64,000 bases of DNA from Candidatus Nomurabacteria bacterium (GTDB lineage Bacteria > Patescibacteriota > Minisyncoccia > Phycocordibacterales > UBA918). Below the pieces are notes generated by a model. It searched no databases and was not told where the DNA came from. It worked only from the letters and a program-made list of their open reading frames with translations. Below are positions 8,749 to 41,479 of the stretch, piece after piece. Positions within the stretch are counted from its first letter, which is position 1. Every line of letters starts with the position of its first letter. The translations under genes and the position numbers were made by a program. The DNA is taken from NCBI GenBank assembly GCA_020632155.1, contig JACKGE010000001.1, positions 381,302 through 445,301 on the forward strand, written 5' to 3'.

Positions 8749-8856
8749 GCTCTGTAGTATATACCTTTAACAAACTGGAGTAGTAATAAGTTTCCCGTGT
8801 ATTGTTTTAATTGCCGTTAGTTTCTGTGCAGGCTAAAATGAGCGACACAAAACAGT

Positions 8857-9699
8857 ATGGACATGTACCGCACCGTCAAAGGACTTATTCCAAAGCGTCT
8901 TCGTAAAACGTTTCGGCCAGTGTACGCGCGCTTGGCGCTGCGTGGTTTTGATAGGCCACAAAGTGTCGAGATTAAAACGTACGGTTTTTCTATTCAACTA
9001 GACCCGAATAATGGGGCGGTTGATGAGTACATTTACATGCACCGTAATTGGGAGACCACAATTGCAGCTATTTTGGAGCAGAAATTAGAAAGAGGCGGTA
9101 CGTTTATCGATATCGGCGCTAATATCGGCTACTTCAGTTTGGAGGCGGCAACGTTGGTAGGGGAAGGTGGGCGAGTCATTGCATTTGAACCACTCCCGTT
9201 TTTGGCCGAGCAACTTAGGACAAGTATTCAGCTAAATGGCTTTTCAAATATCGACGTGCGACAGTTGGCGCTCGGGGATTCTGTTGGTGAACAAAAGATA
9301 GAATTGCAGCGCGGTAACATCGGCGGTTCTTCGTTAGTAAAAGAACTTGATTCTGGTCACTTCGAAACGGTGAAGGTGGCTCGGCTCGATGATGAATTGG
9401 CTGGTATTGATCGGGTTGACCTTATAAAAATAGACGTTGAGGGCTACGAGTACGAAGTATTGAAGGGAGCGCAGGCGGTCTTACAAAAGCACCAACCAAC
9501 CTTAGTGATGGAGTTCAGCCCCAATGTATACCGCCGTCGTGACCCGAATATGGCGAGAGATATACTGCTGCTTCTTGTTAACGCCGGCTACTCACTCACC
9601 GATATCGACCGGAATATTGCAGTGACAGACGTCGATGAGTTTCTTGCCGGACTGGGTACAGAACAGACGAATTTACTTGCTGTCAGCAAATCTGGATAA
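8857..9699 (+). CDS. FkbM-family SAM-dependent methyltransferase
   Basis: FIDIGANIGYFSLEAA ... IKIDVEGYEYEVLKGA are the hallmark motifs of the Methyltransf_21/FkbM family. Confidence 0.85.
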   Translation: MDMYRTVKGLIPKRLRKTFRPVYARLALRGFDRPQSVEIKTYGFSIQLDPNNGAVDEYIYMHRNWETTIAAILEQKLERGGTFIDIGANIGYFSLEAATLVGEGGRVIAFEPLPFLAEQLRTSIQLNGFSNIDVRQLALGDSVGEQKIELQRGNIGGSSLVKELDSGHFETVKVARLDDELAGIDRVDLIKIDVEGYEYEVLKGAQAVLQKHQPTLVMEFSPNVYRRRDPNMARDILLLLVNAGYSLTDIDRNIAVTDVDEFLAGLGTEQTNLLAVSKSG

Positions 9700-9740
9700 G
9701 GTGGTCAGTGTTTAGATTTTGGGGCGCTATAATGTAAGGA

Positions 9741-11189: not shown

Positions 11190-11279
11190 GCTCGGGGGAG
11201 CTTTTTGCACAGGGTGGCGAAATAAGATGTCTCTGGTATGCTGTACCCTAATCTTATTGGTAGCAAACATCATTAACGT

Positions 11280-22574: not shown

Positions 22575-23294
22575 ATGAGCTTCGATCCTTCACCACAGGC
22601 TAAATTCATACCCGTTAAAGAAGCCGCCAAACTGGTCGGCTACACGACCGACTACGTCGCTAAGTTGGCGCGGGAGGGAAAGGTCGATGCACGGCGCAAT
22701 GGTCGACAGTGGTTCGTTGGCCGCGACTCAGTGAAACTCTTTTCACTGCAGCAAGAGGAGCTCAAAAAAACTCGTCAACAAGAATTAAAAGAGCAGCGTC
22801 TTAGAGAGCGTCATGGTGAGGTGAGTACGGCATCGCCATCGGTAGCAAAAATCGAGAAACAAGAAAGTGGAGCGCATGAAGCGCTCGCGACTACGGCCGT
22901 GGTGTTTGCTTCAATCTGCATTATGACCGTCCTCTCACTTTCTGTAGTTGAAAATAAGATCTCGTTTTCAGACATAGGGGCGACGATTGCTGGACTTGCA
23001 GCACGCGTTGGTAGTGTCGCAAATGTTATAGACGGGACTGATTGGTGGCCGCCACAAGGACTCCATCAGGTTGCTCTTGATGGGGAGGCAGTTGGTGGCC
23101 TTAGAGACCTGCCACAGGTAGATAGCAATGAAGCCCGCATCTTGCTTCCGAACAATGAGAATGCTACGTCTGCCGCACGGTATTTTTCTGACGAGGTCAT
23201 GGTGAAGACCAGTGCGAATGGTGCGGTAATAACACCGGTCTTTCGCAGTGGTACTTCAGAACAGGCGTTTGTGATTGAGGATAGTACCGAGTGA
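22575..23294 (+). CDS. paralogous membrane-tethered HTH protein
   Basis: N-terminus AKLVGYTTDYVAKLAREGKVDARRNGRQWFVGRDSV (same motif as 21325 ORF). TM helix ALATTAVVFASICIMTVLSLSVV, then a ~110-aa C-terminal domain. Confidence 0.55.
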   Translation: MSFDPSPQAKFIPVKEAAKLVGYTTDYVAKLAREGKVDARRNGRQWFVGRDSVKLFSLQQEELKKTRQQELKEQRLRERHGEVSTASPSVAKIEKQESGAHEALATTAVVFASICIMTVLSLSVVENKISFSDIGATIAGLAARVGSVANVIDGTDWWPPQGLHQVALDGEAVGGLRDLPQVDSNEARILLPNNENATSAARYFSDEVMVKTSANGAVITPVFRSGTSEQAFVIEDSTE

Positions 23295-23304
23295 GTTTTT
23301 ACGT

Positions 23305-26010
23305 ATGAGCAAGCGTATCATTATCAACCGAATACTACACACAACTACACTTGGTCTTTTGCTCGTGCTTAGCCTTAGTCTCCTTAGCTCTCTTGCGGAG
23401 GCGGCGCCAAACTACCAGATCAACTATCAAGGTAAGCTCCTCGATAGTTCTGGCTCTCCGGTGGCAAATGGTTTATACGACATGGAGTTTAAGCTCTATA
23501 CCGTTCCTACCGGTGGCAGCGCCATTTGGACCGAAACACGCACTGGTGGTAATCAAGTGATGGCCACAAGCGGCCTGTTCTCAGTGATGCTCGGTGAAGT
23601 AGCCTCTCTCTCTGGAGTTGATTTTGATCAAACGCTCTACCTAGGAGTGAATATCGAGGGTGACGGTGAGATGTCACCGCGCAAAGTGCTTGGCTCCGTA
23701 CCGGCTGCATTTGAGGCGGCACACGCAGCTGATAGTGATACCGTGGGCGGTGTTGCTTCTTCCTCGTTCCTCAGAAGTGATGCAGCTGACACAGCTTCAG
23801 GCTTGCTGACATTCACTGGAGGACTTGTCAGTACAGCCTCTAGTACCATCACTGATCTTACGTTCACTACTGCTACTGCTACAACGCTCGTCATAAACGG
23901 CGAAGCCTTTACTGACTTTACGGGCACTGCACTTGTAAACACCGGTGGGGTACTCTCAGTTTCAACCTCGTCACTGGCAGTGTACTTTGCGTCGACGTCT
24001 GATTTTAATACCGAAGCAAAGTTGGAAAGTATTTTGACTGACGTCACCAACATATACACCAACAACGACGGTTCCCTCAGTGACGACGACCTCAGCAACA
24101 ACAGCACCACCGACCTCGCTGAAGGTACTAACCTCTATTTCACGACTGCTCGCGCTTCTACCACTGCAGCGCAAGTCCTCTTTGCTACCACAACCCTTCC
24201 AAACCTTACGACCTTAGCCAACCTTTCTACCGTTGGCACCATCACCTCCGGAACGTGGAACGGCACCGCCATCGGTGACGCCTACCTCACCAAGACTGGT
24301 GACTGGACCGGCACCTTCGACGGACAGGAGGGGAGTTACTATCTCAATGCCGACAATCTCACCAACCTCGATGCTAGTGATATTGCTCTTACCAACGGTT
24401 ACGTTCTGCGCGGTTCAGCAGGTGGCACCGCTGAGGCCACTAGCTCACTCTTTATTACTGACGCTGGAAATGTGGGGATTGGGACAACGACGCCAGATTA
24501 CCCACTTGAAGTGGTTGGCCGTACCGAACTCCACGGCATCACTGTTGTTGACGGCCGTTCTACCAGTGTTGATGGCCCTCACTTCACTGTTAGTGATGAT
24601 GCCAACCTGCCCCTGTTTGACATCTCGTCTTCCTTTGGCCAAACCTTTATCAACAGCAACAAGAATGCCCGCTTCTTTGACAGTGTCTACCTTGCTGACG
24701 AGCTCCAAGACGTCACTCAATCAGCTGGTTCCAATGGGTACATTCTACAGTCAACTGGTACCAGTACGCTGTGGACCGACCCTACTAGTCTTGGTTTCAT
24801 TGCTACTACCAGTGGCAACTGGACCGGCACCTTCGACGGACAGGAGGGGAGTTACTACCTAGACCTCGCCAATGCTACGGGTGATACTGACGACCTCACC
24901 GAAGGCAGCACCAACCTCTTCTCTCAGTGGGGCACCTCTGGCTCTAACGTCTACTACAACAGTGGAAATGTGGGGATTGGGACGACAAGTCCGCAGACCA
25001 CCTTGCATGTCTCAGACACCAGTGCAATTTTGCGACTTGACCCGACCGGAGCAAGTGGGGATGCTTCCATCCAATACTACGCTGACGCTGCTGCTCGCTG
25101 GTCAAGTGGTGTAGATAATGATGATAGCTACAAATACAAGATATCTACCGGATCTGCTCTTGGTAGTGGTGAGGCGCTGACTATTGATACCTCCGGCAAC
25201 ATTGGTATCGGAACCACAACACCAGATCAAATACTTACGGTTGCGGGTAACGCATATATAACGGGCGGAGCTACAACCAGCGACCTCTATGTTACCGATA
25301 CGTTCAGTGGGGCCGGTTTAACCGCTTGTAGTGGTTCTGCCTCTAAACTCCTGTGGAGCTCTACAACACAGCAATTTGTTTGTGGAGCTGACGCTGGCGC
25401 TGGCGGGGGTATCACCGCACTTGGTGTGGCTGGTTCGTACCAAAGCGGTTCTACGCAGACCCTTGCCACTTCCAGTGATACTAACCTAGAACTCACTATT
25501 GTCTCAAGCGGCGATACACATACATTTACACCGGTTTGGAACGGCACACTCGCTGTTGGACGTGGTGGTACCGGCGCAGGTTCTTTCAACGCTGGTGAAC
25601 TCCTCGTCGGCAACGGTACCGGCGCCCTTACCTCGACCACTACCGCTGGACTCAAAGCCACATTGGCGCTCGACAATGTAGAGAACACCGCGCTCTCGAC
25701 GTGGCTGGCTCAAGCAATATCACGACACTCGGCACGATTGGTACCGGCATCTGGAACGGCACTGCCATCGGTGACGCCTACCTCACCAAGACCGGCGACT
25801 GGACCGGCACCTTCGACGGACAGGAGGGGAGTTACTACCTCAACGCCGACAATCTCACCAACCTCGATGCTAGTGATATTGCTCTTACCAACGGCTACGT
25901 CCTTCGTGGTTCAGCTGCTAACACTGCCGAAGCTACCAGCTCGCTCTTTATTACTGACGCTGGAAATGTGGGGATTGGTACTACGACGCCAGATTACCCA
26001 CTTGAAGTAG
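23305..26010 (+). CDS. giant tail-fibre-like surface protein, 5' segment (signal peptide; reading frame is lost at ~25696 and the remaining ORF is out-of-frame translation)
   Basis: MSKRIIINRILHTTTLGLLLVLSLSLLSSLAEA signal peptide. Repeated GNVGIGTTTP and GTWNGTAIGDAYLTKTGDWTGTFDGQEGSYYL modules. After nt ~25696 the ORF translates the alternative frame of the repeat (…ISRHSARLVPASGTALPSVTPTSPRP…). Confidence 0.6.
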   Translation: MSKRIIINRILHTTTLGLLLVLSLSLLSSLAEAAPNYQINYQGKLLDSSGSPVANGLYDMEFKLYTVPTGGSAIWTETRTGGNQVMATSGLFSVMLGEVASLSGVDFDQTLYLGVNIEGDGEMSPRKVLGSVPAAFEAAHAADSDTVGGVASSSFLRSDAADTASGLLTFTGGLVSTASSTITDLTFTTATATTLVINGEAFTDFTGTALVNTGGVLSVSTSSLAVYFASTSDFNTEAKLESILTDVTNIYTNNDGSLSDDDLSNNSTTDLAEGTNLYFTTARASTTAAQVLFATTTLPNLTTLANLSTVGTITSGTWNGTAIGDAYLTKTGDWTGTFDGQEGSYYLNADNLTNLDASDIALTNGYVLRGSAGGTAEATSSLFITDAGNVGIGTTTPDYPLEVVGRTELHGITVVDGRSTSVDGPHFTVSDDANLPLFDISSSFGQTFINSNKNARFFDSVYLADELQDVTQSAGSNGYILQSTGTSTLWTDPTSLGFIATTSGNWTGTFDGQEGSYYLDLANATGDTDDLTEGSTNLFSQWGTSGSNVYYNSGNVGIGTTSPQTTLHVSDTSAILRLDPTGASGDASIQYYADAAARWSSGVDNDDSYKYKISTGSALGSGEALTIDTSGNIGIGTTTPDQILTVAGNAYITGGATTSDLYVTDTFSGAGLTACSGSASKLLWSSTTQQFVCGADAGAGGGITALGVAGSYQSGSTQTLATSSDTNLELTIVSSGDTHTFTPVWNGTLAVGRGGTGAGSFNAGELLVGNGTGALTSTTTAGLKATLALDNVENTALSTWLAQAISRHSARLVPASGTALPSVTPTSPRPATGPAPSTDRRGVTTSTPTISPTSMLVILLLPTATSFVVQLLTLPKLPARSLLLTLEMWGLVLRRQITHLK
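24241..24775 (+). repeat. ~530-bp near-identical intragenic direct repeat, copy 1
   Basis: Near-identical to 25746..26275 (encodes TWNGTAIGDAYLTKTGDWTGTFDGQEGSYYLNADNLTNLDASDIALTNGYVLRGSA...GNVGIGTTTPDYPLEVVGRTELHGITVVDGRSTSVDGPHFTVSDDANLPLFDISSSFGQTFINSNKNARFFDSVYLADELQDVTQSAGS). Confidence 0.8.
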
Positions 26011-28553
26011 TTGGCCGCACCGAACTCCACGGCATCACTGTTGTTGACGGTCGTTCTACCAGTGTTGATGGCCCTCACTTCACTGTTAGTGATGATGCCA
26101 ACCTGCCCCTGTTTGACATCTCGTCTTCCTTTGGCCAAACCTTTATCAACAGCAACAAGAATGCCCGCTTCTTTGACAGTGTCTACCTTGCTGACGAGCT
26201 CCAAGACGTCACTCAGTCGGCCGGTTCTGCTGGCTACGTGCTTCAATCTACCGGTACTAGTACGCTGTGGGTCGCAACAAGCAGTCTCGGAATCAGCGCT
26301 GGTGGCGGTGGTACGGTGAGTAGCGTTGCAGCGAGTGTCCCGACTGGTTGGACAGTGACTGGTAGTCCGATAACTGCTACAGGAACTCTTGCGTTTGACT
26401 ACGACACCGGCTACGGCGCCGTCCTTATAGCCAGTACCACTGACTGGCAAACCGCCTACAGTTGGGGCAACCATGCCGCTGCCGGCTATCTCGACGGTAC
26501 TGACATCGGTTCAACCGTCCAAGGCTACAATGCCAACACCACCATCCTCGGTTCTACCATTAATGCTAACGAACTAGCGAGCGAAGACTTCGGTGACTTC
26601 ACCTGCAATGGCACAACGTGCTCCCTTGATGCTGACACCGTGGCGGCCTCTGAAATGGCCGACAGTGATCACGGCTTCTTCTCATACAGCTCCGGAGTAG
26701 CATCTCTCGACACCGATGGCCTCACTAGTGCCAACCTGTCTGGTGCGCTCACTAATGAGACTGGTACTGGAAGTGTCGTGTTCTCAAGTTCACCGACTCT
26801 CACCACACCAGATCTTGGTACTCCAAGTGCAATTACTCTAACCAATGCTACCGGCCTCCCGCTCTCAACTGGCGTCACTGGCACGCTTGATATCGCCAAC
26901 GGTGGTCTTGGCATCTCATACACCGATCCAAATGCTGATCGCATTCTCTTCTGGGATGATAGTGCTGGTAGATTTTGCCAACCTGACAGCTTCAACCGGA
27001 CTCACCCTTACTGGCACTAACCTCACTGTCCGTAGTGCCTCAGAATCTCAGACTGGTATTGCCGAGTTTGCTACTCAAACCGAGGTCAATACCGGAACCG
27101 ATACTACGCGTGTGGTACGCGCCAATACCCTTGGTGCGTGGCCTGGCACCACCAACCTCACCACCCTCGGCACCATCACTACCGGAACGTGGAACGGCAC
27201 CGCCATCGGTGACGCCTACCTCACCAAGACTGGTGACTGGACCGGCACCTTCGACGGACAGGAGGGGAGTTACTACCTAGACCTCGCCAATGCTACGGGT
27301 GATACTGACGACCTCACCGAAGGCAGCACCAACCTCTTCTCTGATGGACCACCTCTGGCTCTGATATTTGCAGTGGAAGTGTTGGAATTGGTATTGACGA
27401 GTCCATTCAGCACAACCACTAAAACGCTCACCGTTGATGCTGGAGGGGTTCATCTGGCAATATGCCGGCCTTGAACTACGTGGTGGCAAATGGTAATTTG
27501 CTGGAAATAGTGAAATTGGTTTTTTGCTGGAGAGGACGCTTACGAGCACTCGCGTATGAGCTGATGTAACGGGTGGCGGGATCTTGGTTGGAAATCGGCC
27601 TTTATACCAACCAGAATTCTGCAGCGAATCTCACAGAACGAATGCGCGTTAACTATCTTGGTAACGTCGGCATCCGGGACGACAGGTCCGTGAAGCTTGA
27701 CGTGGTTGGGAATATCCGTGCATATACTACTACAAGTAATAACGGCCTTATTATTTCATCAGGAAGTACCAATACTGGTGCTCGAAACTGGTTCGTTGGC
27801 GCAAACACTCCTGTGGCTTATGGTGATTTTGCTCTGCAGCAGTCAAATGCACTGGGTGGTGATCCACGCACTGCTGGTACGGCACGGTTGTATACGCTCC
27901 TCCGGGTCGGCATCACCACCACTCCATCAGAACTCCTGCATGCGCCTGGCGATGCCCGTATAGAAGGACGCTTTATGACAGCACTTCACCAAGCGGTGCT
28001 CTCGGCTACGTCCTCCAAACTACCGGCACGGAGAGTACCATGGTGGCGATCAAGTCTTGGCCGTGAACACCAACACAATTAACTGTGAAAGCGGGTAGAG
28101 GTTATATATTTGATGGCAGCAACAGTGGCACGCTCTCTTCTGGAACTTGGCACTTTGATTCACTTACAGATGATACAGTTAGATGATACATATAACACCC
28201 TCGGCATATCTCGACAGTACTGTAGCAGATGGCGCTCTTTCAATGCCAACGTCTCACTCTACTCGGCAGCGCTATAGACCCACTGGATCTTGCAGACGAT
28301 GATTTCGGAGACTTTTCTTGCTCCAGTGGTATCTCTGTACCTTTGATAACGACACCATCGCTCCAGCCGAGATGGCTGATGCTGACACGGCTTCTTCTCA
28401 TACAGCTGGAGGGTAGCTTCGCTTGACAGGTGGCCTTACCAGTGCAAACCTCGCATCTGCCCTCACTAATGAAACTGGTGGCAGTGCGGTGTTTCAGCTT
28501 CGCCAACTCTCACTACCTAACCTCCAGTACACCAAGCGCTGTCACATTAACTA
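25697..28553 (+). pseudogene. frameshift-riddled, degenerate paralogous segments of the giant surface-protein gene (or assembly errors in a collapsed repeat)
   Basis: Homolog-guided comparison shows 1-nt indels at ~25696 (tggcctggc -> tggctggc), ~26962 (aacttt -> agatttt), and ~27345-27474 (premature stop). Fragments 27573..28082 and 28229..28768 still encode recognisable modules (GNVGI, DLADDDFGDFSCSSG, TNATGLPISTG) but in shifting frames. Confidence 0.5.
25746..26275 (+). repeat. ~530-bp intragenic direct repeat, copy 2
   Basis: See copy 1. Only scattered synonymous or conservative differences between the two copies. Confidence 0.8.
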
Positions 28554-31500
28554 ATGCAACTGGTCTCCCAATTAGCACTGGCCTTAGTGGTGCTGGAACC
28601 GGCGTCCTTACTGCTCTTGGTGTTAACATCAGGTTCCTTTGTGGTCAATGGTGGCGCTCTTGGCACCCCATCCTCAGGTACTCTCTGCAACGACTGGCTT
28701 ACCACTCTCTACCGGGTGACTGGCACACTTGGTATTGCCAATGGCGGTCTTGGTGTCTCATACACTGATCCAAATGCAGACCGTATCTTATTCTGGGACG
28801 ATAGTGCTGGCAACTTCGCTAACCTTGTCGCCTCAACTGGTCTTACTTTGTCGGGCACCAACCTAACGGTCCGAGCTGCTTCAGAATCACAAACTGGTAT
28901 TGCTCCGCAAAGGAGTTTGCTACTCAAACCGAGGTCAATACCGGAACCGATACTACGCGTGTGGTACGCGCCAATACCCCTCGGTGCGTGGCTGGTCACC
29001 AACCTCACCACCCTCGGCACCATCACTACCGGAACGTGGAACGGCACCGCCATCGGTGACGCCTACCTCACCAAGACTGGTGACTGGACCGGCACCTTCG
29101 ACGGACAGGAGGGGAGTTACTACCTAGACCTCGCCAATGCTACGGGTGATACTGACGACCTCACCGAAGGCACAACCAACCTCTTCTCCCAGTGGACCAC
29201 CTCCGGCTCTGATATCTACTACAACAGTGGAAATGTTGGTATTGGGACGACGACGCCGGACCAGCCCCTGGTCGTCCTTGGTGGTACTGCAAGTACAGCA
29301 CCAAACCTACTCACTATCCAGTCAAATGAAGGTGGTAGCACCAGTCCGGGCGATGTGTACGCCGGTATTCAGTTTGGTGTATATGGGGGAGAGAATGGCA
29401 GTGGTGCACAGCCAGTAACCGCCTTTATCAAAGCGGTTGATACGAGAGCTGGCGCTACTTCAAATGAAGACGGGGGACTTTCTTTTGGAACCCTGAATTC
29501 CACCGGCGGTCCGACAGAACGGATGATTATTACTCACGATGGTAAGGTCGGTATTGGCACCTCTGATCCGTCTGACACTCTCAATGTTGCTGGTAACACC
29601 GACATTACCGGTGAAGTGCAGATTGATGGAACATTGTCTATCGGTGGCGTCGCGCCGAACAGTTCACGCAGTCTCTATATAAATGACTCATTCACTGATG
29701 ATGCAGCTACGTACGGCATATATAACCTAACCAACTTCGGCTCCTCCATAAGTGGAAACCGTACACCATATAGTAGTTTCAATAAACTTACGGTCGACGG
29801 GTATACCTTAAATTCTAATACTCTTAACCCAGCGGGTGTGTATGGCGAAGTCGAGATATTAAATGGCAATGAAGATGTTGGTAGCGCCCGTGGATTATAC
29901 TCGGTTGTAGATAACCAAAATACCAGTGGTACATTGGACGCTAGTTACGCCATTGATGTACTTACCCAAACTTCGGCTAATTCTACTACTACCAACGCGT
30001 ATGCGTTTAGAAGCAATTTAACCAATAACGGCTACATCGGTAACTACTACGGTATTTATCTCACGGATGTAGTAGAGGGAGGGCAGGGCAATGCCTACGC
30101 GTTCTGGACCAATGAAGGAGACGTTGTTCTTGACGGCGACGGCGACGGTGTTGCAGGTGGTACCGATGTTGGCACCAACCTTTTCTTTGGCGAAAGTCAA
30201 GATGCAGCAATTTGGTATGACGGCGCCGATTTTAACATTGATCCGCAAATCGTTGGTTCAGGTGATCTGCTCATACCAAACGGCAACGTTGGTATTGGTG
30301 ACCCGACACCTTCATCTAAACTTGATGTGTACGAAAATAGTACCAATGCCGCTGGTGCGAGTGGACTTACACTAGAACAAGCTGGTACTGGTGATGTAAA
30401 CATTTCATTCCTACTGACGGGTACACGACGTTGGAATGTTGGTGTCGACAACAGTGATAGTGATAGGTTCAAAATCCTCTCCGACAATAGCAATGATTAC
30501 AGTGGTTCAGGACTGGTGATTAACACGAATGGTAATGTCGGCATCGGCGCAGCCGACCCCTCTGTGGCTAAACTGCAAACGTACGTGAATGATACAAGCT
30601 CGTACCAAAATCTCATTGAGCAGGACAGTACTGGTGACTCGGCACTCTCGTTCCTTTTAACAGGCACTAAACAATGGATCGTTGGTATTGATAATAGCGA
30701 CGGTGACAAGTTCAAGATCGGCGAAGGAGGTGCTGTTGATTCTGAAACCGCACTAACCATTGATACGTCTAGTAATGTTGGTATTGGTATCACTGACCCA
30801 AGCACCTACTTACAAATTACCCGAGCATCAAACGCGTGGCCAGCGACTTCGGGAACCACTCAAAGTACTGGCCAATATATGCGCCTCGGAAACAATACTG
30901 GTTCTGTTCTTGATATCGGTGGCAACAGTACCTCAGGCCAGTGGCTACAATCCACAAACGCCACCAATCTTGCCACCAATTATCCGCTACTCCTAAATCC
31001 AAATGGTGGCAACGTCGGTATCGGTGATTCCTCTCCAGCCAGTCTATTCACCGTCGGTAACGGCGACCTGTTCCAAGTAAACTCCTCTGGTGACATTATC
31101 ACGCAGTCTGTTGGTGTCGATGCACTGGAGAGCGAAGACTTCGGTGACTTCACTTGCAATGGCACGACGTGTACTCTCGACGCTACCTATCTGACGGGCA
31201 ACCAAACCATCACCCTTTCTGGAGACGTCTCTGGTTCTGGTGCTACCAGCATCAGCACCACTCTGGCGGCTGACACCGTTGATTATTCAAATATCGATTA
31301 CTCAGCAGTCATTGGTAGCGACCCATCATTTGGAGCTAGTGAGACCTTCTTTGGCACTACCGGTGTCATCTTTGAAGGATCGTCTGCTGATACATTTGAA
31401 GGGCTCCTTACCACCACCAATATTACCGGTTCAGATAAGACATGGACATTGCCAAATACCACCGGCACCATCGCGCTCCTAACGAGTGCTATGACCGGTA

Positions 31501-34500
31501 CTTTTGACGGCAACAACTTCGGCGGGGGAGCAATTGGTGCCGGTGACCTTCTCTACGGTTCAGCTGCCGGTACCATTTCAGAACTTTCTGGCGCCGCGAC
31601 GGGCAACGTGCTCCTTTCCGGTGGTGCAACTGGGGCCCCAAGCTGGGGCAAGGTTTCTGCCACAGCACTCAGCGCCGCTGACTTCGGTGACTTCACCTGC
31701 AACGGCACCACCTGTACACTCGACGATACCTACTTAGCAAACGGAGACCACTGGACCCTCACCGGTGACCCGTACCTCTATTACACAGGAGGGAATGTGG
31801 GTATTGGTACGTCGTCTCCAACCAATCTTCTCTATATAAACGGCGGTAACATCGGTACCTCGACGGCAACGGTTGTTATTGATGACGGCCTCGGTTCGCT
31901 TGGTTTGACGCCGCCAACTCCATATAACGCTTCCCTTAAACTCTATAACGGTATTGGTGATAACTCTGTAGTACTCCGCTCGATGTCTGATTCCAGTGGT
32001 TCTAATAATGGGGAGAATACCGCCGAATTGGCATTTACCAGCTTGAGTGAAGCGTCCGTTGGTACAACTGACTCCGCACCGTTCTACCTCAAGACCAACA
32101 ATACCTCACGTCTCTATATTGACTCCTCCGGCAACGTTGGTATCGGTACCACGAGTCCACAACGATTATTGCACTTGAGTACGATTGGTCAGGCAACGGG
32201 TGCGGTAGCACGTATGGAGGCACCAACTGGATATGACACTAAATTTGAATTTTGGGAAGATGGAGTTGAATTGTGGGAATTTGGTGCTGATACAAGCGCA
32301 GATCTGTTTGCGATTGGACCGACCGTTAATACAGCGGATTTTGTCATCGACTCCTCCGGCAACGTCGGTATTGGTACTACAAGCCCAAGTACGTTACTCC
32401 AGATTGGAGACGGTACGAATGATGCTATCCAAACATTCACCGATGGCCTCGGCTCACTACAAGCTACTATTGATTTTCAAACCTCCGGAACAGGAGCCCC
32501 ATCTAATCCAGATGGATGGAAGTTGCGTTTGTACGGGCAGAGTACTTATGATGCAGCTGATTATGGTATCGGCATCAACGGCAATACACTCTGGTTTAAT
32601 ACAGGCGGTACAAACATAGATTTCTATGACAGTGGTAGTCAGATTGCAACCTTCCAAAACGGTAATTTTGGAATTGGCGACACCTCACCTGCCGCACTTC
32701 TCACTGTCGGCAATGGAGATCTCTTCCAAGTGAACTCCTCCGGTGTTGTTACGGCCGGTACGTGGCAGGGAACAGCACTTACAGACGCCTATGTAAGTGA
32801 TACCCTAACAGCATCAACATGGCAGGGGTATACCATTAGCGGCGGTGATGACCTTGATACCGTCTCAGTACCAACCGGCCGTAAGGTAACAATTGGCGGT
32901 TATGCAGGTGTGTCACCAACCAATACTCCAAACTCAGAACAGTATGGTGCTCTTATTACTGCTCACGATGGTTCACAGCAAAATCAGCTTTGGTTTGGTG
33001 GTACAACCTCCGGCGATATTTATGTACGTCGGCGCGATAGTGGTACTTACTACGCGTGGACTCGCTTCTGGAATGATGCGAACGATGGCTCTGGCAGTGG
33101 CCTTGATGCCGATACCCTTGACGGCGTCGACTCCTCTGCTTTTAGTCAACTCGGTGCTTTCATTGATCCAGTTGATCTCGCTGACGATGACTTCGGTGAC
33201 TTCACTTGTACGACCGGTTTCTGTTTCCTTGATAACGATGTGGTAGCAGCGGCGGAAATGGCTAATGGTGACCACGGCTTCTTCTCATACAGTGGTGGTG
33301 TCGCTTCGCTTGATACCGGAGGTCTTACTTCTGCCAACCTTATTAGTGCACTCACTAACGAGACCGGTTCCGGCAGCGCAGTCTTCTCTGCGTCACCAAC
33401 TTTCACAGGTACGGTAAACGCCGCTGCCGCCACACTTTCAAGCACTCTCACTCTTTCCGGCACTGCCGCCAATATAGCGCTTGGCTCCAACTACCTCTCT
33501 GGTGATGGTGGTGACGAAGGCATTGCAATTGACTCAAGCGGTAATGTGACACTAACTGGCGATCTAACCGGAACTACCGACACCAAATTGGCCCTTACAC
33601 ATGCTGGTAACGAAACCGGATTCTCCTTCATACAGACCAATGTGCTCTCTGGCGAACAGGATGTCTTTGTGATCGAGGACCAAGATGGCGGCGGCGGCGG
33701 ACAAGACGAAAGCTCGGTTTTAAAAGTCATCAAGTCTGGTGCTTGGAACAGTGCGGATGATGGCTCATCGCTTATAGAGTTACTCTACAGCGGTGGTGGT
33801 AGCTTAAACCCTGACCAGCAGTTCTATATCACCGGTCGGACCACCGACGAAGGTGCTCTGACATGGGGTGTATCACAAACGGATGCTGACATCTGGAGCA
33901 CCGGTTCCTTGCGGCTTGGCGCAACAGGTGTTGATTGTTCTGGTACCAACGCACCATGTTTCAATTCACCAAGCATCGCCTTTGAAACCTCCGGAAATTC
34001 GTATATCAATACCGGTGGAAACTTTGGTATCGGCACAACGACGCCAAGCGCACTTCTCCATATTGACGCCAGTGCTGCTGCTGGTTCTGCCTTTAGGATC
34101 AGTACCACCTCAGCCACTTTCTTTGACGTCGATGCAGTGACGGGTGTTTCTACCTTTGGTGACTCAAGTGGTACTGGTGATGCGGTATTCCAGTTTGCTA
34201 ATGATGCTAATGCATGGGCCGTCGGGTATAAAGCGGCAGACCTATCATTTAACATCGCTTCGGGTACTGACCTTACCGGTACCATTGCATTATCTATAGC
34301 TAAAAGCGGTAATGTAACTATCGTTGGCTCGGCAGTGACTTGTGTACTCGGTAATGGTTCGAGCGCTACCAGCTGTTCATCATCTGATGAGCGACTCAAG
34401 GACGAGATCACTACCTTAAGTGGTACGAGCACTCTTGAACAACTGCGCAGACTTCGCCCAGTCTCATTCTTCTGGAACGATTGGATGCAGGAGAACGGTT

Positions 34501-35249
34501 CTACTGACGGTATCCAGTACGGACTCATCGCTCAAGAAGTAAAGGAGGTGTTCCCGTCGCTGGTGATGCGCGACCCAAACACAAACTACTACCGTCTTGA
34601 CTACCAAAACCTCATATCACCAACCATCAGTGCGGTACTTGAGCTCGACATGAATCTGGAGAGCTTGGCATCGAGCACAATGCCACTTCTTGATGAACGT
34701 GATGAGGAGACCTTTGCTGGCCGCTTCTTTGCTCGTTTGGTGACATGGCTCGGTGACACCGCCAATGGCATCGGCGACCTCTTTGCTGATCGAGTGCGTA
34801 CCAAGGAGATATGCGTTGAAAAAGCCAATGGTAGTGCCGTCTGTGTTAATGGAGATGAACTGGAGTCACTCCTTAATGGCCAAAGTACCGGCGGTAGTGG
34901 GGGAAGCGGAAATGTTGGCGGTGGTTCGACCGCTGGCGGCAACACACCACCTTCGGACGACCCTGTCGATGATACAACCGGCACCAGTACCGATGACGGC
35001 AGTACCTCGGGTGACACTACAGATGGAACCACAGGTACATCAACTGATTCGGGTACTGGTGATGGTGAAACTACAGACGGTGGTGATTCTATTCCTGATC
35101 AAACTGACACTATTGAGGGAGATAGTGGTAGCCAAGGTGATGGTACGGATGCTTCGAACGATCAATCAGGTGATAACAACACCACGGATGCTACTGATAC
35201 TGATTCGAATGGAGCGGAGGAGCCGGATAACACATCCACTGGCGGTTAA
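28554..35249 (+). CDS. giant tail-fibre-like surface protein, 3' segment (2231 codons), ending in an intramolecular-chaperone / peptidase S74-like autoprocessing domain and an acidic T/D/G-rich tail
   Basis: Dozens of GNVGIG(T/D)(T/S)SP beta-repeat units. Recurring DFGDFTCNGTTCTLD cysteine-pair modules. Near the C-terminus CSSS-DERLKDEITTL...YGLIAQEVKEVFPSLVMRDPNTNYYRLDYQNLISPTISAVLEL matches the S-D autocleavage and chaperone consensus of phage tail-spike/fibre C-terminal domains. The ATG at 28554 is not a credible start: the first ~60 codons are out-of-frame relative to homologous copies. The gene is most likely continuous with 23305. Confidence 0.7.
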   Translation: MQLVSQLALALVVLEPASLLLLVLTSGSFVVNGGALGTPSSGTLCNDWLTTLYRVTGTLGIANGGLGVSYTDPNADRILFWDDSAGNFANLVASTGLTLSGTNLTVRAASESQTGIAPQRSLLLKPRSIPEPILRVWYAPIPLGAWLVTNLTTLGTITTGTWNGTAIGDAYLTKTGDWTGTFDGQEGSYYLDLANATGDTDDLTEGTTNLFSQWTTSGSDIYYNSGNVGIGTTTPDQPLVVLGGTASTAPNLLTIQSNEGGSTSPGDVYAGIQFGVYGGENGSGAQPVTAFIKAVDTRAGATSNEDGGLSFGTLNSTGGPTERMIITHDGKVGIGTSDPSDTLNVAGNTDITGEVQIDGTLSIGGVAPNSSRSLYINDSFTDDAATYGIYNLTNFGSSISGNRTPYSSFNKLTVDGYTLNSNTLNPAGVYGEVEILNGNEDVGSARGLYSVVDNQNTSGTLDASYAIDVLTQTSANSTTTNAYAFRSNLTNNGYIGNYYGIYLTDVVEGGQGNAYAFWTNEGDVVLDGDGDGVAGGTDVGTNLFFGESQDAAIWYDGADFNIDPQIVGSGDLLIPNGNVGIGDPTPSSKLDVYENSTNAAGASGLTLEQAGTGDVNISFLLTGTRRWNVGVDNSDSDRFKILSDNSNDYSGSGLVINTNGNVGIGAADPSVAKLQTYVNDTSSYQNLIEQDSTGDSALSFLLTGTKQWIVGIDNSDGDKFKIGEGGAVDSETALTIDTSSNVGIGITDPSTYLQITRASNAWPATSGTTQSTGQYMRLGNNTGSVLDIGGNSTSGQWLQSTNATNLATNYPLLLNPNGGNVGIGDSSPASLFTVGNGDLFQVNSSGDIITQSVGVDALESEDFGDFTCNGTTCTLDATYLTGNQTITLSGDVSGSGATSISTTLAADTVDYSNIDYSAVIGSDPSFGASETFFGTTGVIFEGSSADTFEGLLTTTNITGSDKTWTLPNTTGTIALLTSAMTGTFDGNNFGGGAIGAGDLLYGSAAGTISELSGAATGNVLLSGGATGAPSWGKVSATALSAADFGDFTCNGTTCTLDDTYLANGDHWTLTGDPYLYYTGGNVGIGTSSPTNLLYINGGNIGTSTATVVIDDGLGSLGLTPPTPYNASLKLYNGIGDNSVVLRSMSDSSGSNNGENTAELAFTSLSEASVGTTDSAPFYLKTNNTSRLYIDSSGNVGIGTTSPQRLLHLSTIGQATGAVARMEAPTGYDTKFEFWEDGVELWEFGADTSADLFAIGPTVNTADFVIDSSGNVGIGTTSPSTLLQIGDGTNDAIQTFTDGLGSLQATIDFQTSGTGAPSNPDGWKLRLYGQSTYDAADYGIGINGNTLWFNTGGTNIDFYDSGSQIATFQNGNFGIGDTSPAALLTVGNGDLFQVNSSGVVTAGTWQGTALTDAYVSDTLTASTWQGYTISGGDDLDTVSVPTGRKVTIGGYAGVSPTNTPNSEQYGALITAHDGSQQNQLWFGGTTSGDIYVRRRDSGTYYAWTRFWNDANDGSGSGLDADTLDGVDSSAFSQLGAFIDPVDLADDDFGDFTCTTGFCFLDNDVVAAAEMANGDHGFFSYSGGVASLDTGGLTSANLISALTNETGSGSAVFSASPTFTGTVNAAAATLSSTLTLSGTAANIALGSNYLSGDGGDEGIAIDSSGNVTLTGDLTGTTDTKLALTHAGNETGFSFIQTNVLSGEQDVFVIEDQDGGGGGQDESSVLKVIKSGAWNSADDGSSLIELLYSGGGSLNPDQQFYITGRTTDEGALTWGVSQTDADIWSTGSLRLGATGVDCSGTNAPCFNSPSIAFETSGNSYINTGGNFGIGTTTPSALLHIDASAAAGSAFRISTTSATFFDVDAVTGVSTFGDSSGTGDAVFQFANDANAWAVGYKAADLSFNIASGTDLTGTIALSIAKSGNVTIVGSAVTCVLGNGSSATSCSSSDERLKDEITTLSGTSTLEQLRRLRPVSFFWNDWMQENGSTDGIQYGLIAQEVKEVFPSLVMRDPNTNYYRLDYQNLISPTISAVLELDMNLESLASSTMPLLDERDEETFAGRFFARLVTWLGDTANGIGDLFADRVRTKEICVEKANGSAVCVNGDELESLLNGQSTGGSGGSGNVGGGSTAGGNTPPSDDPVDDTTGTSTDDGSTSGDTTDGTTGTSTDSGTGDGETTDGGDSIPDQTDTIEGDSGSQGDGTDASNDQSGDNNTTDATDTDSNGAEEPDNTSTGG

Positions 35250-35257
35250 CATTGTGT

Positions 35258-40717: not shown

Positions 40718-41479
40718 ATGAAGGCCGTCGTACTCAGTGTTCTTTTCTGGACAACACTCTCATTACTTTGGTGTTACTCACCTGACGCCTTAGCGCAGGT
40801 GATGCAGAGTAATAATTTTCAGATCCAAAGTGATTCGGTTAATGTCGGTGGCGGTAATGCAACTTCGAGTAATTATCGACTTGAAAGTACCGTGGGTGAA
40901 GTTGCTACAGGAGATAGTGATAGCAGTAGCTTTTCTCTGCGCGCCGGTTATCAGCAAATGCAAGAAGTGTATCTTTCACTTAGTAACGTAGGAGACCTCA
41001 CACTTACCCCAACCATCCCTGGTGTAACTGGTGGTAGTGCCAGCGGCACGGTATCGGTGGTGGTCACGACTGACAGTCTGGCTGGCTATCAACTTTCTAT
41101 CGCGGCAGACAATGATCCAGCGATGCAGAGCGACCTTGACTCGATTGCAGACTACGTCCCTATCGGTGCTGTACCAGACTTTACCTTTAATTACGCCGCC
41201 AGCGACGCTCTCTTTGGCTACTCACCGGAAGGTGGTGATATCACTGTGCGGTACCGAGATAACGGAGCGGATACCTGTGGTATTGATACTACCGATACTT
41301 CTTCTCGATGTTGGGATGGTCTTTCAACAACATCAGCAACCATAGCGCGAGGTGCTGGTTCAAATCATCCAGACGGGGCTACTACTACCGTCCGTTTCCA
41401 AGTCAGTATCGGCGGTGCTGTTGCGCAAACTGTCGGTACATACGTGGCCACTACCACCATAACTGCGCTGCCACTATGA
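40718..41479 (+). CDS. secreted beta-rich surface/fimbrial-like protein (paralog of 38908..39612)
   Basis: ATG at 40718 is preceded by AAGGGG. Signal peptide MKAVVLSVLFWTTLSLLWCYSPDALA. See paralog evidence above. The ORF-track start at 40679 would overlap the upstream gene. Confidence 0.55.
   Translation: MKAVVLSVLFWTTLSLLWCYSPDALAQVMQSNNFQIQSDSVNVGGGNATSSNYRLESTVGEVATGDSDSSSFSLRAGYQQMQEVYLSLSNVGDLTLTPTIPGVTGGSASGTVSVVVTTDSLAGYQLSIAADNDPAMQSDLDSIADYVPIGAVPDFTFNYAASDALFGYSPEGGDITVRYRDNGADTCGIDTTDTSSRCWDGLSTTSATIARGAGSNHPDGATTTVRFQVSIGGAVAQTVGTYVATTTITALPL

What the first reader, a model, noticed from the sequence alone, without database searches (positions are those of the whole stretch)
34378..34670. 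Conserved autoproteolytic site and chaperone motifs (SSS|DERLKDEI ... GLIAQEV ... LDYQNLIS)
The sequence CSSSDERLKDEITTL...LRPVSFFWND...YGLIAQEVKEVFPSLVMRDPNTNYYRLDYQNLISPTISAVLEL matches the consensus of C-terminal intramolecular chaperone domains of phage endosialidase and tail fibres. In those proteins cleavage occurs between Ser and Asp of S-D-x-R-L-K. It predicts that the mature surface protein is released from a ~290-aa C-terminal fragment. That fragment includes an unusual ~115-aa acidic Thr/Asp/Gly-rich tail (34890-35246).
Basis: partly seen in the sequence, partly recalled or inferred. Interest (0 to 1): 0.7.

Follow-up and report, generated by a model that had tools for sequence, protein, structure and literature searches.

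The report
Self-cleaving tail-fibre chaperone in Nomurabacteria
The flagged stretch is a genuine phage-type self-cleaving folding domain (peptidase S74) at the end of a giant tail-fibre-like surface protein of an ultra-small Nomurabacteria bacterium; the domain is well known, but here it carries an undescribed extra module and acidic tail seen only in this bacterial group among the genome and viral contigs scanned.

Summary
The quoted peptide is really encoded at 34374-34646, in frame with the 2231-aa ORF 28554-35249. It matches Pfam PF13884 Peptidase_S74 (E 2.8e-14, 53.6 bits; cutoff 22). Ser1944 and Lys1949 sit at the catalytic dyad positions, and an AlphaFold model hits the MyRF, endoNF and GA-1 chaperone structures.

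In T5 pb1 and MyRF the cut is N-terminal to the catalytic Ser, so the predicted bond here is Ser1943|Ser1944, not Ser|Asp. The released fragment would be 288 aa, about 30 kDa, pI about 4.

The window is a chromosome of Candidatus Nomurabacteria (Patescibacteria), not a phage. GenBank already names the ORF "tail fiber domain-containing protein". The closest characterised analogues are the S74-terminated surface fibres of Bdellovibrio.

What is new lies after the S74 coiled coil: a conserved ~55-aa module (aa 2054-2108, two invariant Cys) followed by an acidic tail with no basic residues.
- The module has no Pfam, NCBIfam or PDB match.
- It occurs in 1395 protein clusters.
- All 50 genome hits are Patescibacteria or unclassified MAGs, and 80 viral S74 loci lack it.

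Caveat: about 22 frameshifts (25690-28976) separate this ORF from the signal-peptide-bearing start at 23275, so it may be a pseudogene or a poorly assembled region.

The parts
28554..35249 (+). 2231-aa ORF, identical to GenBank MCB9811708.1 'tail fiber domain-containing protein' of Candidatus Nomurabacteria. It is the 3' part of a phage-tail-fibre-like giant surface protein. The ATG at 28554 is probably not the true start.
   Evidence: Searches give the ORF and its exact identity to the GenBank protein. PHROG tail-fibre families match it. There is no Shine-Dalgarno sequence before 28554. The first ~140 codons are partly frameshifted copies of upstream repeats.
34380..34385 (+). Codons Ser1943-Ser1944, the predicted scissile peptide bond. 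The mature fibre would end at Ser1943 and the released fragment would start at Ser1944.
   Evidence: The cut is placed by homology to T5 pb1 Thr1263|Ser1264 and MyRF P586|S587, and because the GA-1 3gud chain starts with SDERHK.
34383..34400 (+). S-D-E-R-L-K motif, with catalytic nucleophile Ser1944 (34383-34385) and general base Lys1949 (34398-34400).
   Evidence: The motif aligns to the ADLRAK stretch of the MyRF chain 7dc3 (Ala at the Ser position, Lys on Lys), taken here as S587(A)/K592 (numbering), and to SDxRxK of 6f45, 8jov and 3gud. Ser and Lys are present in 115 of 115 aligned Patescibacteria family representatives.
34383..34565 (+). Core Peptidase_S74 domain (aa 1944-2004), including GLIAQEV.
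   Evidence: Pfam PF13884, E 2.8e-14. The AlphaFold model has pLDDT 89-95 across this region. Foldseek top hits are MyRF ICA 7dc3 (E 1.8e-5, TM 0.67), endoNF 3gw6 and GA-1 3gud.
34602..34673 (+). Long helix (aa 2017-2040, '...LISPTISAVLELDMNLESLASS'). It is the predicted trimeric coiled-coil part of the chaperone domain.
   Evidence: Helix at model residues 93-116. It is aligned with the helical tails of S74 chains. The trimeric coiled coil is the main driver of trimerisation in MyRF and is central in T5 pb1.
34713..34877 (+). Conserved extension module found only in Patescibacteria or unclassified MAGs, aa 2054-2108: F..FF..(x)W(LF)xDAxNGIxDFFAxRVxTKE(LI)C-x8-9-C(IV)(TN)xxxL(DE)xLL. Cys2087 is at 34812-34814 and Cys2097 at 34842-34844. 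No known family matches it.
   Evidence: The exhaustive HMMER search found 1395 cluster representatives at E<=1e-3. Both Cys are 100% conserved in 150 representatives, and F, W, N and L are at 99%. There is no Pfam hit even at E<=10, and no NCBIfam or PDB hit. No fold match was found. The hairpin plus helix are modelled at pLDDT about 80-90.
34881..35246 (+). Acidic Gly/Thr/Asp/Ser low-complexity tail (aa 2110-2231, 122 aa, no Lys or Arg).
   Evidence: Composition. No tandem repeat. Comparable tails occur throughout the family.
23275..26010 (+). Upstream paralogous fibre ORF. It carries the only credible export signal (MSKRIIINRILHTTTLGLLLVLSLSLLSSLAEA|AP, Met at about 23305) and an N-terminal domain with a sub-threshold match to the Bdellovibrio MAT fibre N-domain. 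It is probably the original 5' end of the same gene.
   Evidence: Searches give the sequence. NCBIfam NF053851 Bdello_MAT_N matches at E 9.9e-8 and 31.9 bits against a cutoff of 60, over aa 35-109.
25690..28976 (+). Frameshift-riddled stretch that joins the two long open parts. There are about 22 frame switches, 20 of them within 27346-28976, and the stretch contains near-identical DNA repeats of downstream fibre modules.
   Evidence: Codon-model frame path, repeat families D1, D3, D8 and D9, and pairwise alignments.

Best explanation
Nt 34383-34673 encode an S74-type C-terminal intramolecular chaperone / autoproteolysis domain. It closes a giant, phage-tail-fibre-like, presumably trimeric surface fibre encoded on the chromosome of a Candidatus Nomurabacteria (Patescibacteria/CPR) bacterium.

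Inferred mechanism, by homology to K1F endoNF, T5 pb1, Bdellovibrio Bd3182 and MyRF:
1. After export, three chains associate through the C-terminal domains, using the coiled-coil helix at aa 2017-2040.
2. These domains template folding of the upstream beta-helical fibre.
3. Once the trimer is correctly formed, Ser1944, activated by Lys1949, attacks the preceding peptide bond (Ser1943|Ser1944).
4. This leaves a mature fibre ending at Ser1943 with an unmasked tip. It releases a 288-aa, ~30-kDa, pI ~4 fragment.

That fragment contains the S74 domain, a conserved two-Cys module so far seen only in Patescibacteria or unclassified MAGs (aa 2054-2108), and a 122-aa acidic tail.

By analogy with the Bdellovibrio MAT fibres, the likely biological role is recognition of and attachment to the host bacterium on which this presumably epibiotic cell lives.

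What is shown: domain identity, dyad conservation, fold similarity, cellular context, and the family distribution of the add-on module. What is inferred: trimerisation, actual cleavage, the exact bond, surface display, a role in host binding, and whether this particular copy is still expressed.
For: Domain identity:
- Pfam S74 at E 2.8e-14, above the gathering score.
- Profile hits to solved S74 chains, with SDxRxK and G(L/V)IAQE aligned.
- AlphaFold model with pLDDT 89-95 over the S74 part. Its best PDB matches are the MyRF ICA, endoNF CIMCD and GA-1 chaperone.
- Ser and Lys are invariant in 115 of 115 related Patescibacteria representatives and in alignment A3.

Experimental precedent:
- S-to-A mutants of T5 pb1 and Bd3182, and S587A or K592A mutants of MyRF, block cleavage, and the bond cut precedes the Ser.
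- Only cleaved T5 pb1 binds its receptor.

Fibre nature:
- PHROG tail-fibre families match, including the C-termini of PblB-type and long-tail-fibre distal subunits.
- The motif GN(V/F)GIGxxxPxxxL occurs eight times.

Cellular, non-prophage context:
- The window carries SecA, GatB, GAPDH, transketolase, PheT, glycosyltransferases and a single tRNA.
- No capsid, portal or terminase genes were found among the neighbours scanned.
- SecA and this ORF are GenBank proteins of one 486,692-bp Candidatus Nomurabacteria contig.
- Relatives lie next to MurJ and ABC-transporter genes.

Bdellovibrio precedent for cellular S74 fibres: PMC10769870. Giant surface proteins of CPR bacteria are thought to mediate host attachment (PMC8080830).
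Against: - The ORF lacks a credible start. There is no Shine-Dalgarno sequence before ATG 28554. Its first residues are out-of-frame readings of fibre repeats.
- The only signal peptide lies 5.2 kb upstream, and about 22 frameshifts intervene. This copy may therefore be a pseudogene, or the assembly may be wrong there.
- The MAT-type N-domain match is below the curated cutoff (31.9 versus 60 bits).
- The trimeric beta-helix immediately upstream of the S74 domain was not modelled.
- Unlike phage S74 proteins, which end a median of 16 residues after the domain, this one continues for about 190 residues whose role is unknown. Discarding a chaperone may therefore not be the whole story.
- No experiment on any Patescibacteria S74 protein was found.
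Confidence: 0.7

Rival explanations
1. This copy is a dead gene. The S74 site is intact in sequence, but the fibre is no longer made or exported because its 5' half is destroyed by frameshifts. On this reading the finding describes a fossil.
For: About 22 frame switches lie between 25690 and 28976, separating the signal-peptide-bearing ORF at 23275 from the S74 ORF. There is no ribosome-binding site at ATG 28554. Part of the ORF's N-terminus is an out-of-frame reading of a 100%-identical repeat.
Against: The damage is confined to about 3.3 kb. The 6.3 kb from 28977 to 35249 and the 2.4 kb from 23305 to 25690 have no frame breaks at all. At the density of the damaged stretch, roughly 80 breaks would be expected in the 6.3 kb. 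Inside the ORF, an 8-nt insertion is compensated by a +1 change in a C run (net +9), which keeps the frame open. The breaks could also be assembly or consensus errors in a repeat-rich region. The short-read contigs recovered for this region (L135-L137) start just downstream of the giant fibre and glycine-rich genes, and lookups of two ORFs in the damaged zone found no independent copies.
Confidence: 0.22
2. It is a phage or prophage tail-fibre gene (structural virion protein) that happens to lie in the bacterial contig, as in the systems the first reader cited.
For: The S74 domain and several fibre modules match phage tail-fibre PHROGs. The next gene also matches phage families (phrog_2295, 2e-55). 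The upstream small gene has an excisionase-like HTH.
Against: No capsid, portal, terminase, tail-tube or integrase genes were found among the neighbours scanned. The flanks are GatB upstream and GAPDH downstream. The extension module was found in 50 genome loci, 45 named as Patescibacteria lineages and 5 as unclassified 'bacterium' MAGs. None of 80 viral-contig S74 loci has it, and their proteins stop about 16 residues after the domain. Two relatives checked (L005, L008) lie on large MAG contigs (121 and 318 kb), and L005's copy is flanked by MurJ and ABC-transporter genes.
Confidence: 0.04
3. The S74 domain here acts only as a trimerisation and folding module and is not cleaved, so the C-terminal module and tail stay on the fibre tip.
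For: The domain is not terminal, because about 190 more residues follow it. Some relatives carry folded Ig-like domains after the module (PF16403), which would be odd cargo for a discarded fragment.
Against: The Ser and Lys residues, needed only for catalysis, are invariant in 115 of 115 family representatives. All tested S74 domains with this dyad cleave: T5 pb1, Bd3182, MyRF, and the S16 gp37 construct, of which only 72 residues remain in the crystal.
Confidence: 0.1
4. MyRF-like release. The two-Cys module and acidic tail hold the C-terminus on the cell envelope, and S74 cleavage frees the giant N-terminal fibre from that anchor, producing a secreted trimer rather than a chaperone being discarded.
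For: The module plus tail is a portable unit. It follows at least three different upstream domain types and, in the contigs scanned, was found only in Patescibacteria or unclassified MAGs. MyRF shows that S74 cleavage can release a protein from an anchor.
Against: The fragment has no transmembrane segment or known sorting signal (by inspection; no Pfam or NCBIfam hit). The export and anchor elements seen are N-terminal instead: a signal peptide on ORF 23275, and an HTH-TM at the N-terminus of the giant proteins in loci L026, L042 and L052. In Bdellovibrio the N-terminal domain is the cell-proximal end.
Confidence: 0.07

Closest known systems
Phage C-terminal intramolecular chaperone domains (MEROPS/Pfam S74): K1F endosialidase endoNF (3GW6), T5 L-shaped tail fibre pb1 (4UW8), GA-1 neck appendage (3GUD), S16 gp37 (6F45)
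   Same: The same Pfam family. The same S-D-x-R-x-K dyad with Lys at +5 and the same G-(L/V)-I-A-Q-E motif. A mixed alpha/beta body plus a long coiled-coil helix. They are the best fold matches. The domain sits at the C-terminal end of a tail-fibre-like protein.
   Different: The gene is encoded in a cellular Patescibacteria chromosome rather than a virion gene cluster. The polypeptide continues for about 190 residues after the domain (a conserved two-Cys module plus an acidic tail), whereas 80 viral loci end a median of 16 residues after it.
Bdellovibrio bacteriovorus MAT (mosaic adhesive trimer) fibres, S74 subgroup, e.g. Bd3182 (Caulton et al. 2024, PMC10769870)
   Same: A cellular, chromosomally encoded, phage-like fibre of a bacterium that lives on other bacteria. 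It ends in an S74 domain with SDxxxK. A signal peptide is followed by an N-terminal domain that weakly matches the MAT N-domain model. The proposed role in recognising a host or prey cell is the same.
   Different: The MAT N-domain match is sub-threshold (31.9 versus 60 bits), and it lies on an ORF separated from the S74 ORF by frameshifts. The MAT S74 proteins terminate in the S74 domain, whereas this one has the extra module and tail. The organism is a Patescibacterium (generally taken to lack an outer membrane; own knowledge), not a Gram-negative predator.
Eukaryotic MyRF ICA domain (7DC3)
   Same: It is the best structural match (Foldseek E 1.8e-5, TM 0.67). It has the same dyad, and further polypeptide follows the domain.
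   Different: In MyRF the downstream part is a transmembrane anchor, and cleavage frees a transcription factor. Here no transmembrane segment follows, and the upstream part is an extracellular fibre.
Phage S16/T2-type gp37-gp38 pair (S74-processed fibre capped by a glycine-rich adhesin encoded next door)
   Same: A glycine-rich protein gene (35252-38239, Pfam Gly_rich_2) starts 3 nt after the stop codon of the S74 fibre gene. In S16, removal of the S74 chaperone exposes the tip to which gp38 binds.
   Different: The downstream protein has no sequence match to gp38 or to any PDB chain. It is 995 aa, with LamG and DUF2341 domains and its own hydrophobic N-terminus. The parallel is positional only.

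Membership tests
Peptidase S74 / C-terminal intramolecular chaperone domain (PF13884) | Sequence match to the family model above the curated threshold | tested here: met
   53.6 bits versus gathering score 22, E 2.8e-14, aa 1944-2004 covering model positions 1-57 of 58.
Peptidase S74 / C-terminal intramolecular chaperone domain (PF13884) | Catalytic Ser and a Lys five residues downstream (S-x-x-x-x-K; endoNF S911/K916, T5 S1264/K1269, MyRF S587/K592) | tested here: met
   Ser1944 and Lys1949 align to the dyad positions of 7dc3, 6f45, 8jov and 3gud. Both are invariant in 115 of 115 family representatives.
Peptidase S74 / C-terminal intramolecular chaperone domain (PF13884) | Fold: alpha/beta body with the G-x-I-A-Q-E strand, followed by a trimer-forming long helix | tested here: met
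   AlphaFold model with pLDDT 89-95 in this part and a helix at aa 2017-2040. Foldseek returns 7dc3 at E 1.8e-5 and 3gw6 and 3gud at probability about 1.0. The model is a monomer, so the trimer itself was not tested.
Peptidase S74 / C-terminal intramolecular chaperone domain (PF13884) | Preceded by a trimeric beta-helical fibre or spike whose folding it assists | tested here: inconclusive
   The upstream region matches tail-fibre PHROGs, including the distal subunit of long tail fibres over aa 1827-2032. It has eight GN(V/F)GIG...P...L motifs. No trimer model was made.
Peptidase S74 / C-terminal intramolecular chaperone domain (PF13884) | Autoproteolytic release of the domain, abolished by Ser-to-Ala | not testable with these tools
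   This needs expression of the wild type and S1944A or K1949A mutants.
Bdellovibrio MAT (mosaic adhesive trimer) fibre family (NCBIfam NF053851 N-domain) | Signal peptide followed by the conserved ~130-aa beta-rich N-terminal domain | tested here: inconclusive
   ORF 23275-26010 has a signal-peptide-like N-terminus. It matches NF053851 at E 9.9e-8 but only 31.9 bits (cutoff 60), over model positions 4-75 of 162. It is not contiguous in frame with the S74 ORF. Three Patescibacteria relatives checked showed no such hit.
Bdellovibrio MAT (mosaic adhesive trimer) fibre family (NCBIfam NF053851 N-domain) | Protein terminates in the S74 domain (S74 subgroup) or in an alternative tip domain | tested here: not met
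   About 190 residues follow the S74 domain, comprising a conserved module plus a tail. It works like a MAT S74 fibre but should not be filed as a member.
Prophage / virion tail-fibre gene | Embedded among virion structural and packaging genes | tested here: not met
   The neighbours are housekeeping or unknown genes. No capsid, portal or terminase hits were found.

The most novel reading that the evidence does not exclude
The conserved two-Cys module plus basic-residue-free tail that follows the S74 domain may be a new C-terminal functional unit of giant surface fibres, so far seen only in Patescibacteria or unclassified MAGs. It has no match in any Pfam, NCBIfam or PDB entry. It occurs in 1395 protein clusters, and it also follows two non-S74 domain types.

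It could be, for example, a foldon-like trimer nucleus or an envelope-docking or sorting element. If so, S74 cleavage in these bacteria would separate two functional products rather than merely discard a chaperone.

Together with the N-terminal HTH-TM domains fused to some of these fibres, the family could couple host contact to signalling in epibiotic ultra-small bacteria.
Probability: 0.2. Interest if true: 0.65.

Novelty: new variant of a known kind. Interest (0 to 1): 0.4.

Why it matters
How Patescibacteria (CPR) cells recognise and hold on to their host bacteria is largely unknown beyond type IV pili. Their giant surface proteins are suspected to play a part but have not been characterised.

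This locus gives a concrete, testable handle. It is a phage-style fibre whose maturation step can be predicted to the residue. The fibre tip would be unmasked by that cleavage, as happens in T5 pb1 and the Bdellovibrio MAT fibres.

The add-on module defines a large, unannotated family (1395 clusters at 50% identity) that could be used to find such fibres across the phylum.

The S74 call itself is routine. GenBank already labels the protein "tail fiber domain-containing protein".

Tried and rejected
Context and homologue searches:
- A single-sequence word-index homologue search gave only 7 hits. The exhaustive profile search was needed to see the family.
It worked with a 6-sequence alignment.
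- Exact-protein lookups for genomic context failed for the fibre ORF, SecA, its NCBI version, and two ORFs in the frameshift zone. As a result, independent confirmation of the frameshifts was not obtained.

The extension module:
- No Pfam hit at E<=10, no NCBIfam hit, and no PDB sequence hit.
- The extension-only AlphaFold model is of low confidence (pLDDT 64), and Foldseek found nothing significant (best E 0.42). A foldon-like reading is therefore only an idea.

Ideas that did not hold up:
- The downstream glycine-rich protein as a gp38-like adhesin: no PDB sequence match.
- A prophage: rejected on gene content.
- A tandem DNA repeat under the acidic tail: none.

Literature:
- No paper linking S74 or endosialidase-chaperone domains to Patescibacteria or CPR was found.
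- One search was too broad to be useful.

Full report
**1. Observation**

ORF 28554..35249 (+ strand, 2231 aa) contains the quoted peptides exactly.
- CSSSDERLKDEI is at nt 34374-34409 (aa 1941-1952).
- GLIAQEV is at nt 34521-34541.
- LDYQNLIS is at nt 34596-34619.

The stated start, 34378, falls on the second base of a codon, so a naive translation from it is out of frame.

The resemblance is not chance.
- Pfam PF13884 Peptidase_S74 scores 53.6 bits (gathering cutoff 22), E 2.8e-14, over aa 1944-2004.
- A profile of this region and six homologues hits solved S74 chains: S16 gp37 6f45 at 3.5e-15, tail fibre 8jov at 9e-15, MyRF 7dc3 at 2e-11, GA-1 3gud at 2.5e-4. The SDxRxK and G(L/V)IAQE motifs are aligned in these hits.

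**2. Catalytic site and the position of the cut**

The S-D-E-R-L-K motif is Ser1944...Lys1949.
- In the direct alignment to the MyRF chain 7dc3, Ser1944 falls on an Ala at the start of ADLRAK, taken here as the mutated S587, and Lys1949 on the Lys taken as K592 (residue numbering).
- Both residues are present in 115 of 115 aligned representatives of the Patescibacteria subfamily and are invariant in alignment A3.

The literature places it one residue earlier.
[quoted passage not shown] The same paper reports this for K1F (PMC4690869).
- MyRF is cut between P586 and S587 by mass spectrometry (PMC8326128).
- The GA-1 chaperone chain in 3gud begins SDERHK.

The predicted bond here is therefore Ser1943|Ser1944 (nt 34380-34385). 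The released fragment would be aa 1944-2231: 288 aa, 30.07 kDa, pI about 4.05.

**3. Structure**

An AlphaFold model of aa 1925-2112, built on a 40-sequence alignment, has mean pLDDT 78 and 89-95 across the S74 body. It shows a long helix at aa 2017-2040.

Its best PDB matches are the MyRF ICA domain (E 1.8e-5, TM 0.67), endoNF 3gw6 and GA-1 3gud, with probabilities of about 1.0.

**4. Organism and context**

The window is a cellular chromosome. It carries SecA, GatB, GAPDH, transketolase, PheT, glycosyltransferases, a Wzy-type ligase and one tRNA.

SecA (identical over the 837-aa GenBank protein) and this ORF (exactly identical) match GenBank proteins MCB9811697.1 and MCB9811708.1 of a Candidatus Nomurabacteria bacterium, on a 486,692-bp contig. 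The ORF is already named "tail fiber domain-containing protein".

The neighbours scanned have no capsid, portal or terminase matches. The fibre body matches phage tail-fibre PHROGs, so this is a phage-like fibre domesticated in, or native to, a cell.

The closest characterised precedent is the Bdellovibrio MAT family. It has 21 surface fibres, 13 of which end in an S74 domain with SDxxxK. Bd3182 self-cleaves at S782, and S782A blocks the cleavage. All 21 share an N-terminal ~130-aa domain after the signal peptide (PMC10769870).

The upstream ORF 23275-26010 has a signal-peptide-like start. It also has a sub-threshold hit to that N-domain model (NF053851, E 9.9e-8, 31.9 bits, cutoff 60).

**5. 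What follows the S74 domain**

Between the coiled coil and the acidic tail lies a conserved module, aa ~2054-2108: F..FF...W(L/F)xDAxNGIxDFFAxRVxTKE(L/I)C-x8-9-C(I/V)(T/N)xxxL(D/E)xLL.

How widespread it is:
- An exhaustive HMMER search with this module alone found 1395 cluster representatives at E<=1e-3, and 567 at E<=1e-10.
- The proteins range up to 6101 aa, and the module always lies near the C-terminus.
- The two Cys are 100% conserved in 150 representatives, and F, W, N and L are at 99%.
- It has no Pfam hit even at E<=10, and no NCBIfam or PDB hit.
- Its hairpin plus helix is modelled with pLDDT of about 80-90, but the module has no fold match.

How it relates to S74:
- In 121 of the top 150 representatives an S74 domain lies directly upstream.
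- In others the module follows different domains, one with "GRVPVKVNLENGPI..GD..T.SS.PG.GMKAT" and one with "SPH..NYW.FDS...GWDYVHE". Neither has a Pfam match. The module is therefore portable.

Where it occurs:
- A scan of one genome per species with module-specific patterns returned 50 loci. Of these, 45 are titled as Patescibacteria lineages (Paceibacterota, "Saccharibacteria", Nomura-, Kaiser-, Giovannoni-, Magasanik- and Gottesmanbacteria, Sungiibacteriota, Minisyncoccia). The other 5 are unclassified "bacterium" MAGs. None is from a named non-CPR phylum.
- In IMG/VR more than 312 loci encode related S74 domains. None of the best 80 has the module, and their proteins stop a median of 16 residues after the S74 profile. 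The Patescibacteria representatives continue for a median of 189 residues.

The tail:
- It is a family trait. The median length is 101 aa, 89% of tails have under 3% basic residues, and many are Pro/Thr/Glu-rich. Some also carry an Ig-like PF16403 domain.
- The window's Thr/Asp/Gly version is therefore one flavour of a common theme, not an oddity.

**6. Integrity of the gene**

A codon-model frame path from 23000 to 35300 needs about 22 frame switches between 25690 and 28976, 20 of them within 27346-28976. It needs none in 23305-25690 or in 28977-35249.

The annotated ATG at 28554 has no Shine-Dalgarno sequence before it. The ORF's first ~140 residues include out-of-frame readings of fibre repeats. 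For example, "SLLLKPRSIPEPILRVWYAPIP" is the shifted reading of a 67-nt repeat that is 100% identical to 27064-27130, which encodes "EFATQTEVNTGTDTTRVVRANT".

Within the ORF, an 8-nt insertion and a +1 change in a C run together restore the frame.

Two readings remain open.
- The middle of a ~3,980-codon gene (23305-35249) has decayed, or is mis-assembled across its repeats.
- The 3' 6.3 kb is kept open by selection and is expressed in some other way.

The absence of any break in 6.3 kb argues that the S74-bearing part is, or very recently was, under selection. I could not obtain independent assemblies of the damaged stretch. The short-read contigs recovered for this region (L135-L137) start just downstream of the giant fibre and glycine-rich genes.

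**7. Mechanism, committed**

The steps are inferred by homology. After export, three chains associate through the C-terminal domains. The S74 domain templates the upstream beta-helical fibre. Ser1944/Lys1949 then cut Ser1943|Ser1944. The fibre tip is unmasked, as in T5 pb1, where only the processed protein binds its receptor. The 30-kDa acidic fragment leaves.

The likely role is host-cell recognition by an epibiotic Patescibacterium. This parallels the Bdellovibrio MAT fibres and fits the view that giant CPR surface proteins mediate attachment (PMC8080830).

I put 0.7 on this overall. Domain identity is near certain. Cleavage at the stated bond is at about 0.75. Expression of this particular copy is at about 0.5-0.6.

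Rivals: a pseudogene (0.22), an uncleaved trimerisation module (0.10), MyRF-like release from a C-terminal anchor (0.07), and a prophage gene (0.04).

**8. Novelty and score**

The S74 domain, its motifs and its autoproteolysis are textbook for phage fibres. They are already documented in a cellular predator, and the ORF is already labelled by PGAP. The core of the finding is therefore ordinary.

What I could not find described is the Patescibacteria variant: S74 (or other C-terminal fibre domains), then the two-Cys module, then a tail free of basic residues. It is absent from Pfam, NCBIfam, the PDB and the searchable literature.

Rating: new variant of a known kind, interest 0.4.

Noticed in passing
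window 25690-28976: A cluster of about 22 reading-frame switches (20 within 27346-28976) lies inside a repeat-rich fibre-coding region, flanked by 2.4 kb and 6.3 kb with none. Inside the 2231-aa ORF, an 8-nt insertion (near 28903-28912) and a +1 change in a C homopolymer (near 28977) compensate each other, giving a net +9. The cause could be real decay, recombination scars between paralogous modules, or assembly error.
   Followed up: partly
window 22575-23294; loci L026:1612-6774, L042:1333-6570, L052:1102-6405: The gene just upstream of the fibre, overlapping its start, encodes a 239-aa protein with an excisionase-like HTH (Pfam HTH_17, sub-threshold at 19.6 bits), then a coiled region and one transmembrane segment. 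In three other Patescibacteria loci the same HTH-TM unit is fused to the N-terminus of the giant protein that ends in the two-Cys module. That is a ToxR-like topology: a cytoplasmic DNA-binding domain tied to an extracellular fibre.
   Followed up: partly
window 35252-38239: A 995-aa glycine-rich protein gene starts 3 nt after the fibre's stop codon. It has two Gly-rich regions (one matching Pfam Gly_rich_2, PF21722), plus Laminin_G_3 and DUF2341, and matches PHROG 2295 at E 2e-55. Its position recalls the phage S16 gp37 (S74) / gp38 (polyglycine adhesin) pair, but no PDB sequence match was found.
   Followed up: partly
proteins P0017, P0010, P0111, P0154, P0023 and P0014, P0026: The two-Cys module also follows two other conserved C-terminal domains that lack any Pfam match: a 'GRVPVKVNLENGPI..GD..T.SS.PG.GMKAT' domain and a 'SPH..NYW.FDS...GWDYVHE' domain. 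Whether these are alternative intramolecular chaperones is unknown.
   Followed up: partly
window 23377-23601 (aa 35-109 of ORF 23275-26010): A sub-threshold match to NCBIfam NF053851, the N-terminal domain of the Bdellovibrio 'mosaic adhesive trimer' fibres (E 9.9e-8, 31.9 bits, cutoff 60). This hints at a shared cell-proximal anchoring domain between a predator's fibres and those of a Patescibacterium.
   Followed up: partly
window ORF aa 862, 1043, 1546 (nt about 31124-31184, 31667-31727, 33176-33236; also 26573-26633): The short Cys-loop motif DFGDF(T/S)C-x3-4-C recurs inside the fibre (three copies in the ORF and more upstream), each on a conserved 61-nt DNA repeat. The motif GN(V/F)GIGxxxPxxxL occurs eight times. 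It resembles, but is not identical to, the 'capping loop' motif reported for Bdellovibrio MAT and MyRF beta-helices.
   Followed up: no
locus L006:64-7005 and 7035-11255: A 'Saccharibacteria'-labelled MAG carries two giant proteins in tandem (2313 and 1406 aa). Both end in S74 plus the two-Cys module plus an Ig-like domain, so paralogous arrays of these fibres exist.
   Followed up: no
window 41308-42987: A 559-aa protein with an fn3 domain whose best PHROG hit is a 'major tail protein' family (E 1.3e-16). This is probably just the shared Ig/fn3 fold. The genes between 38245 and 41479 have no family matches at all.
   Followed up: no
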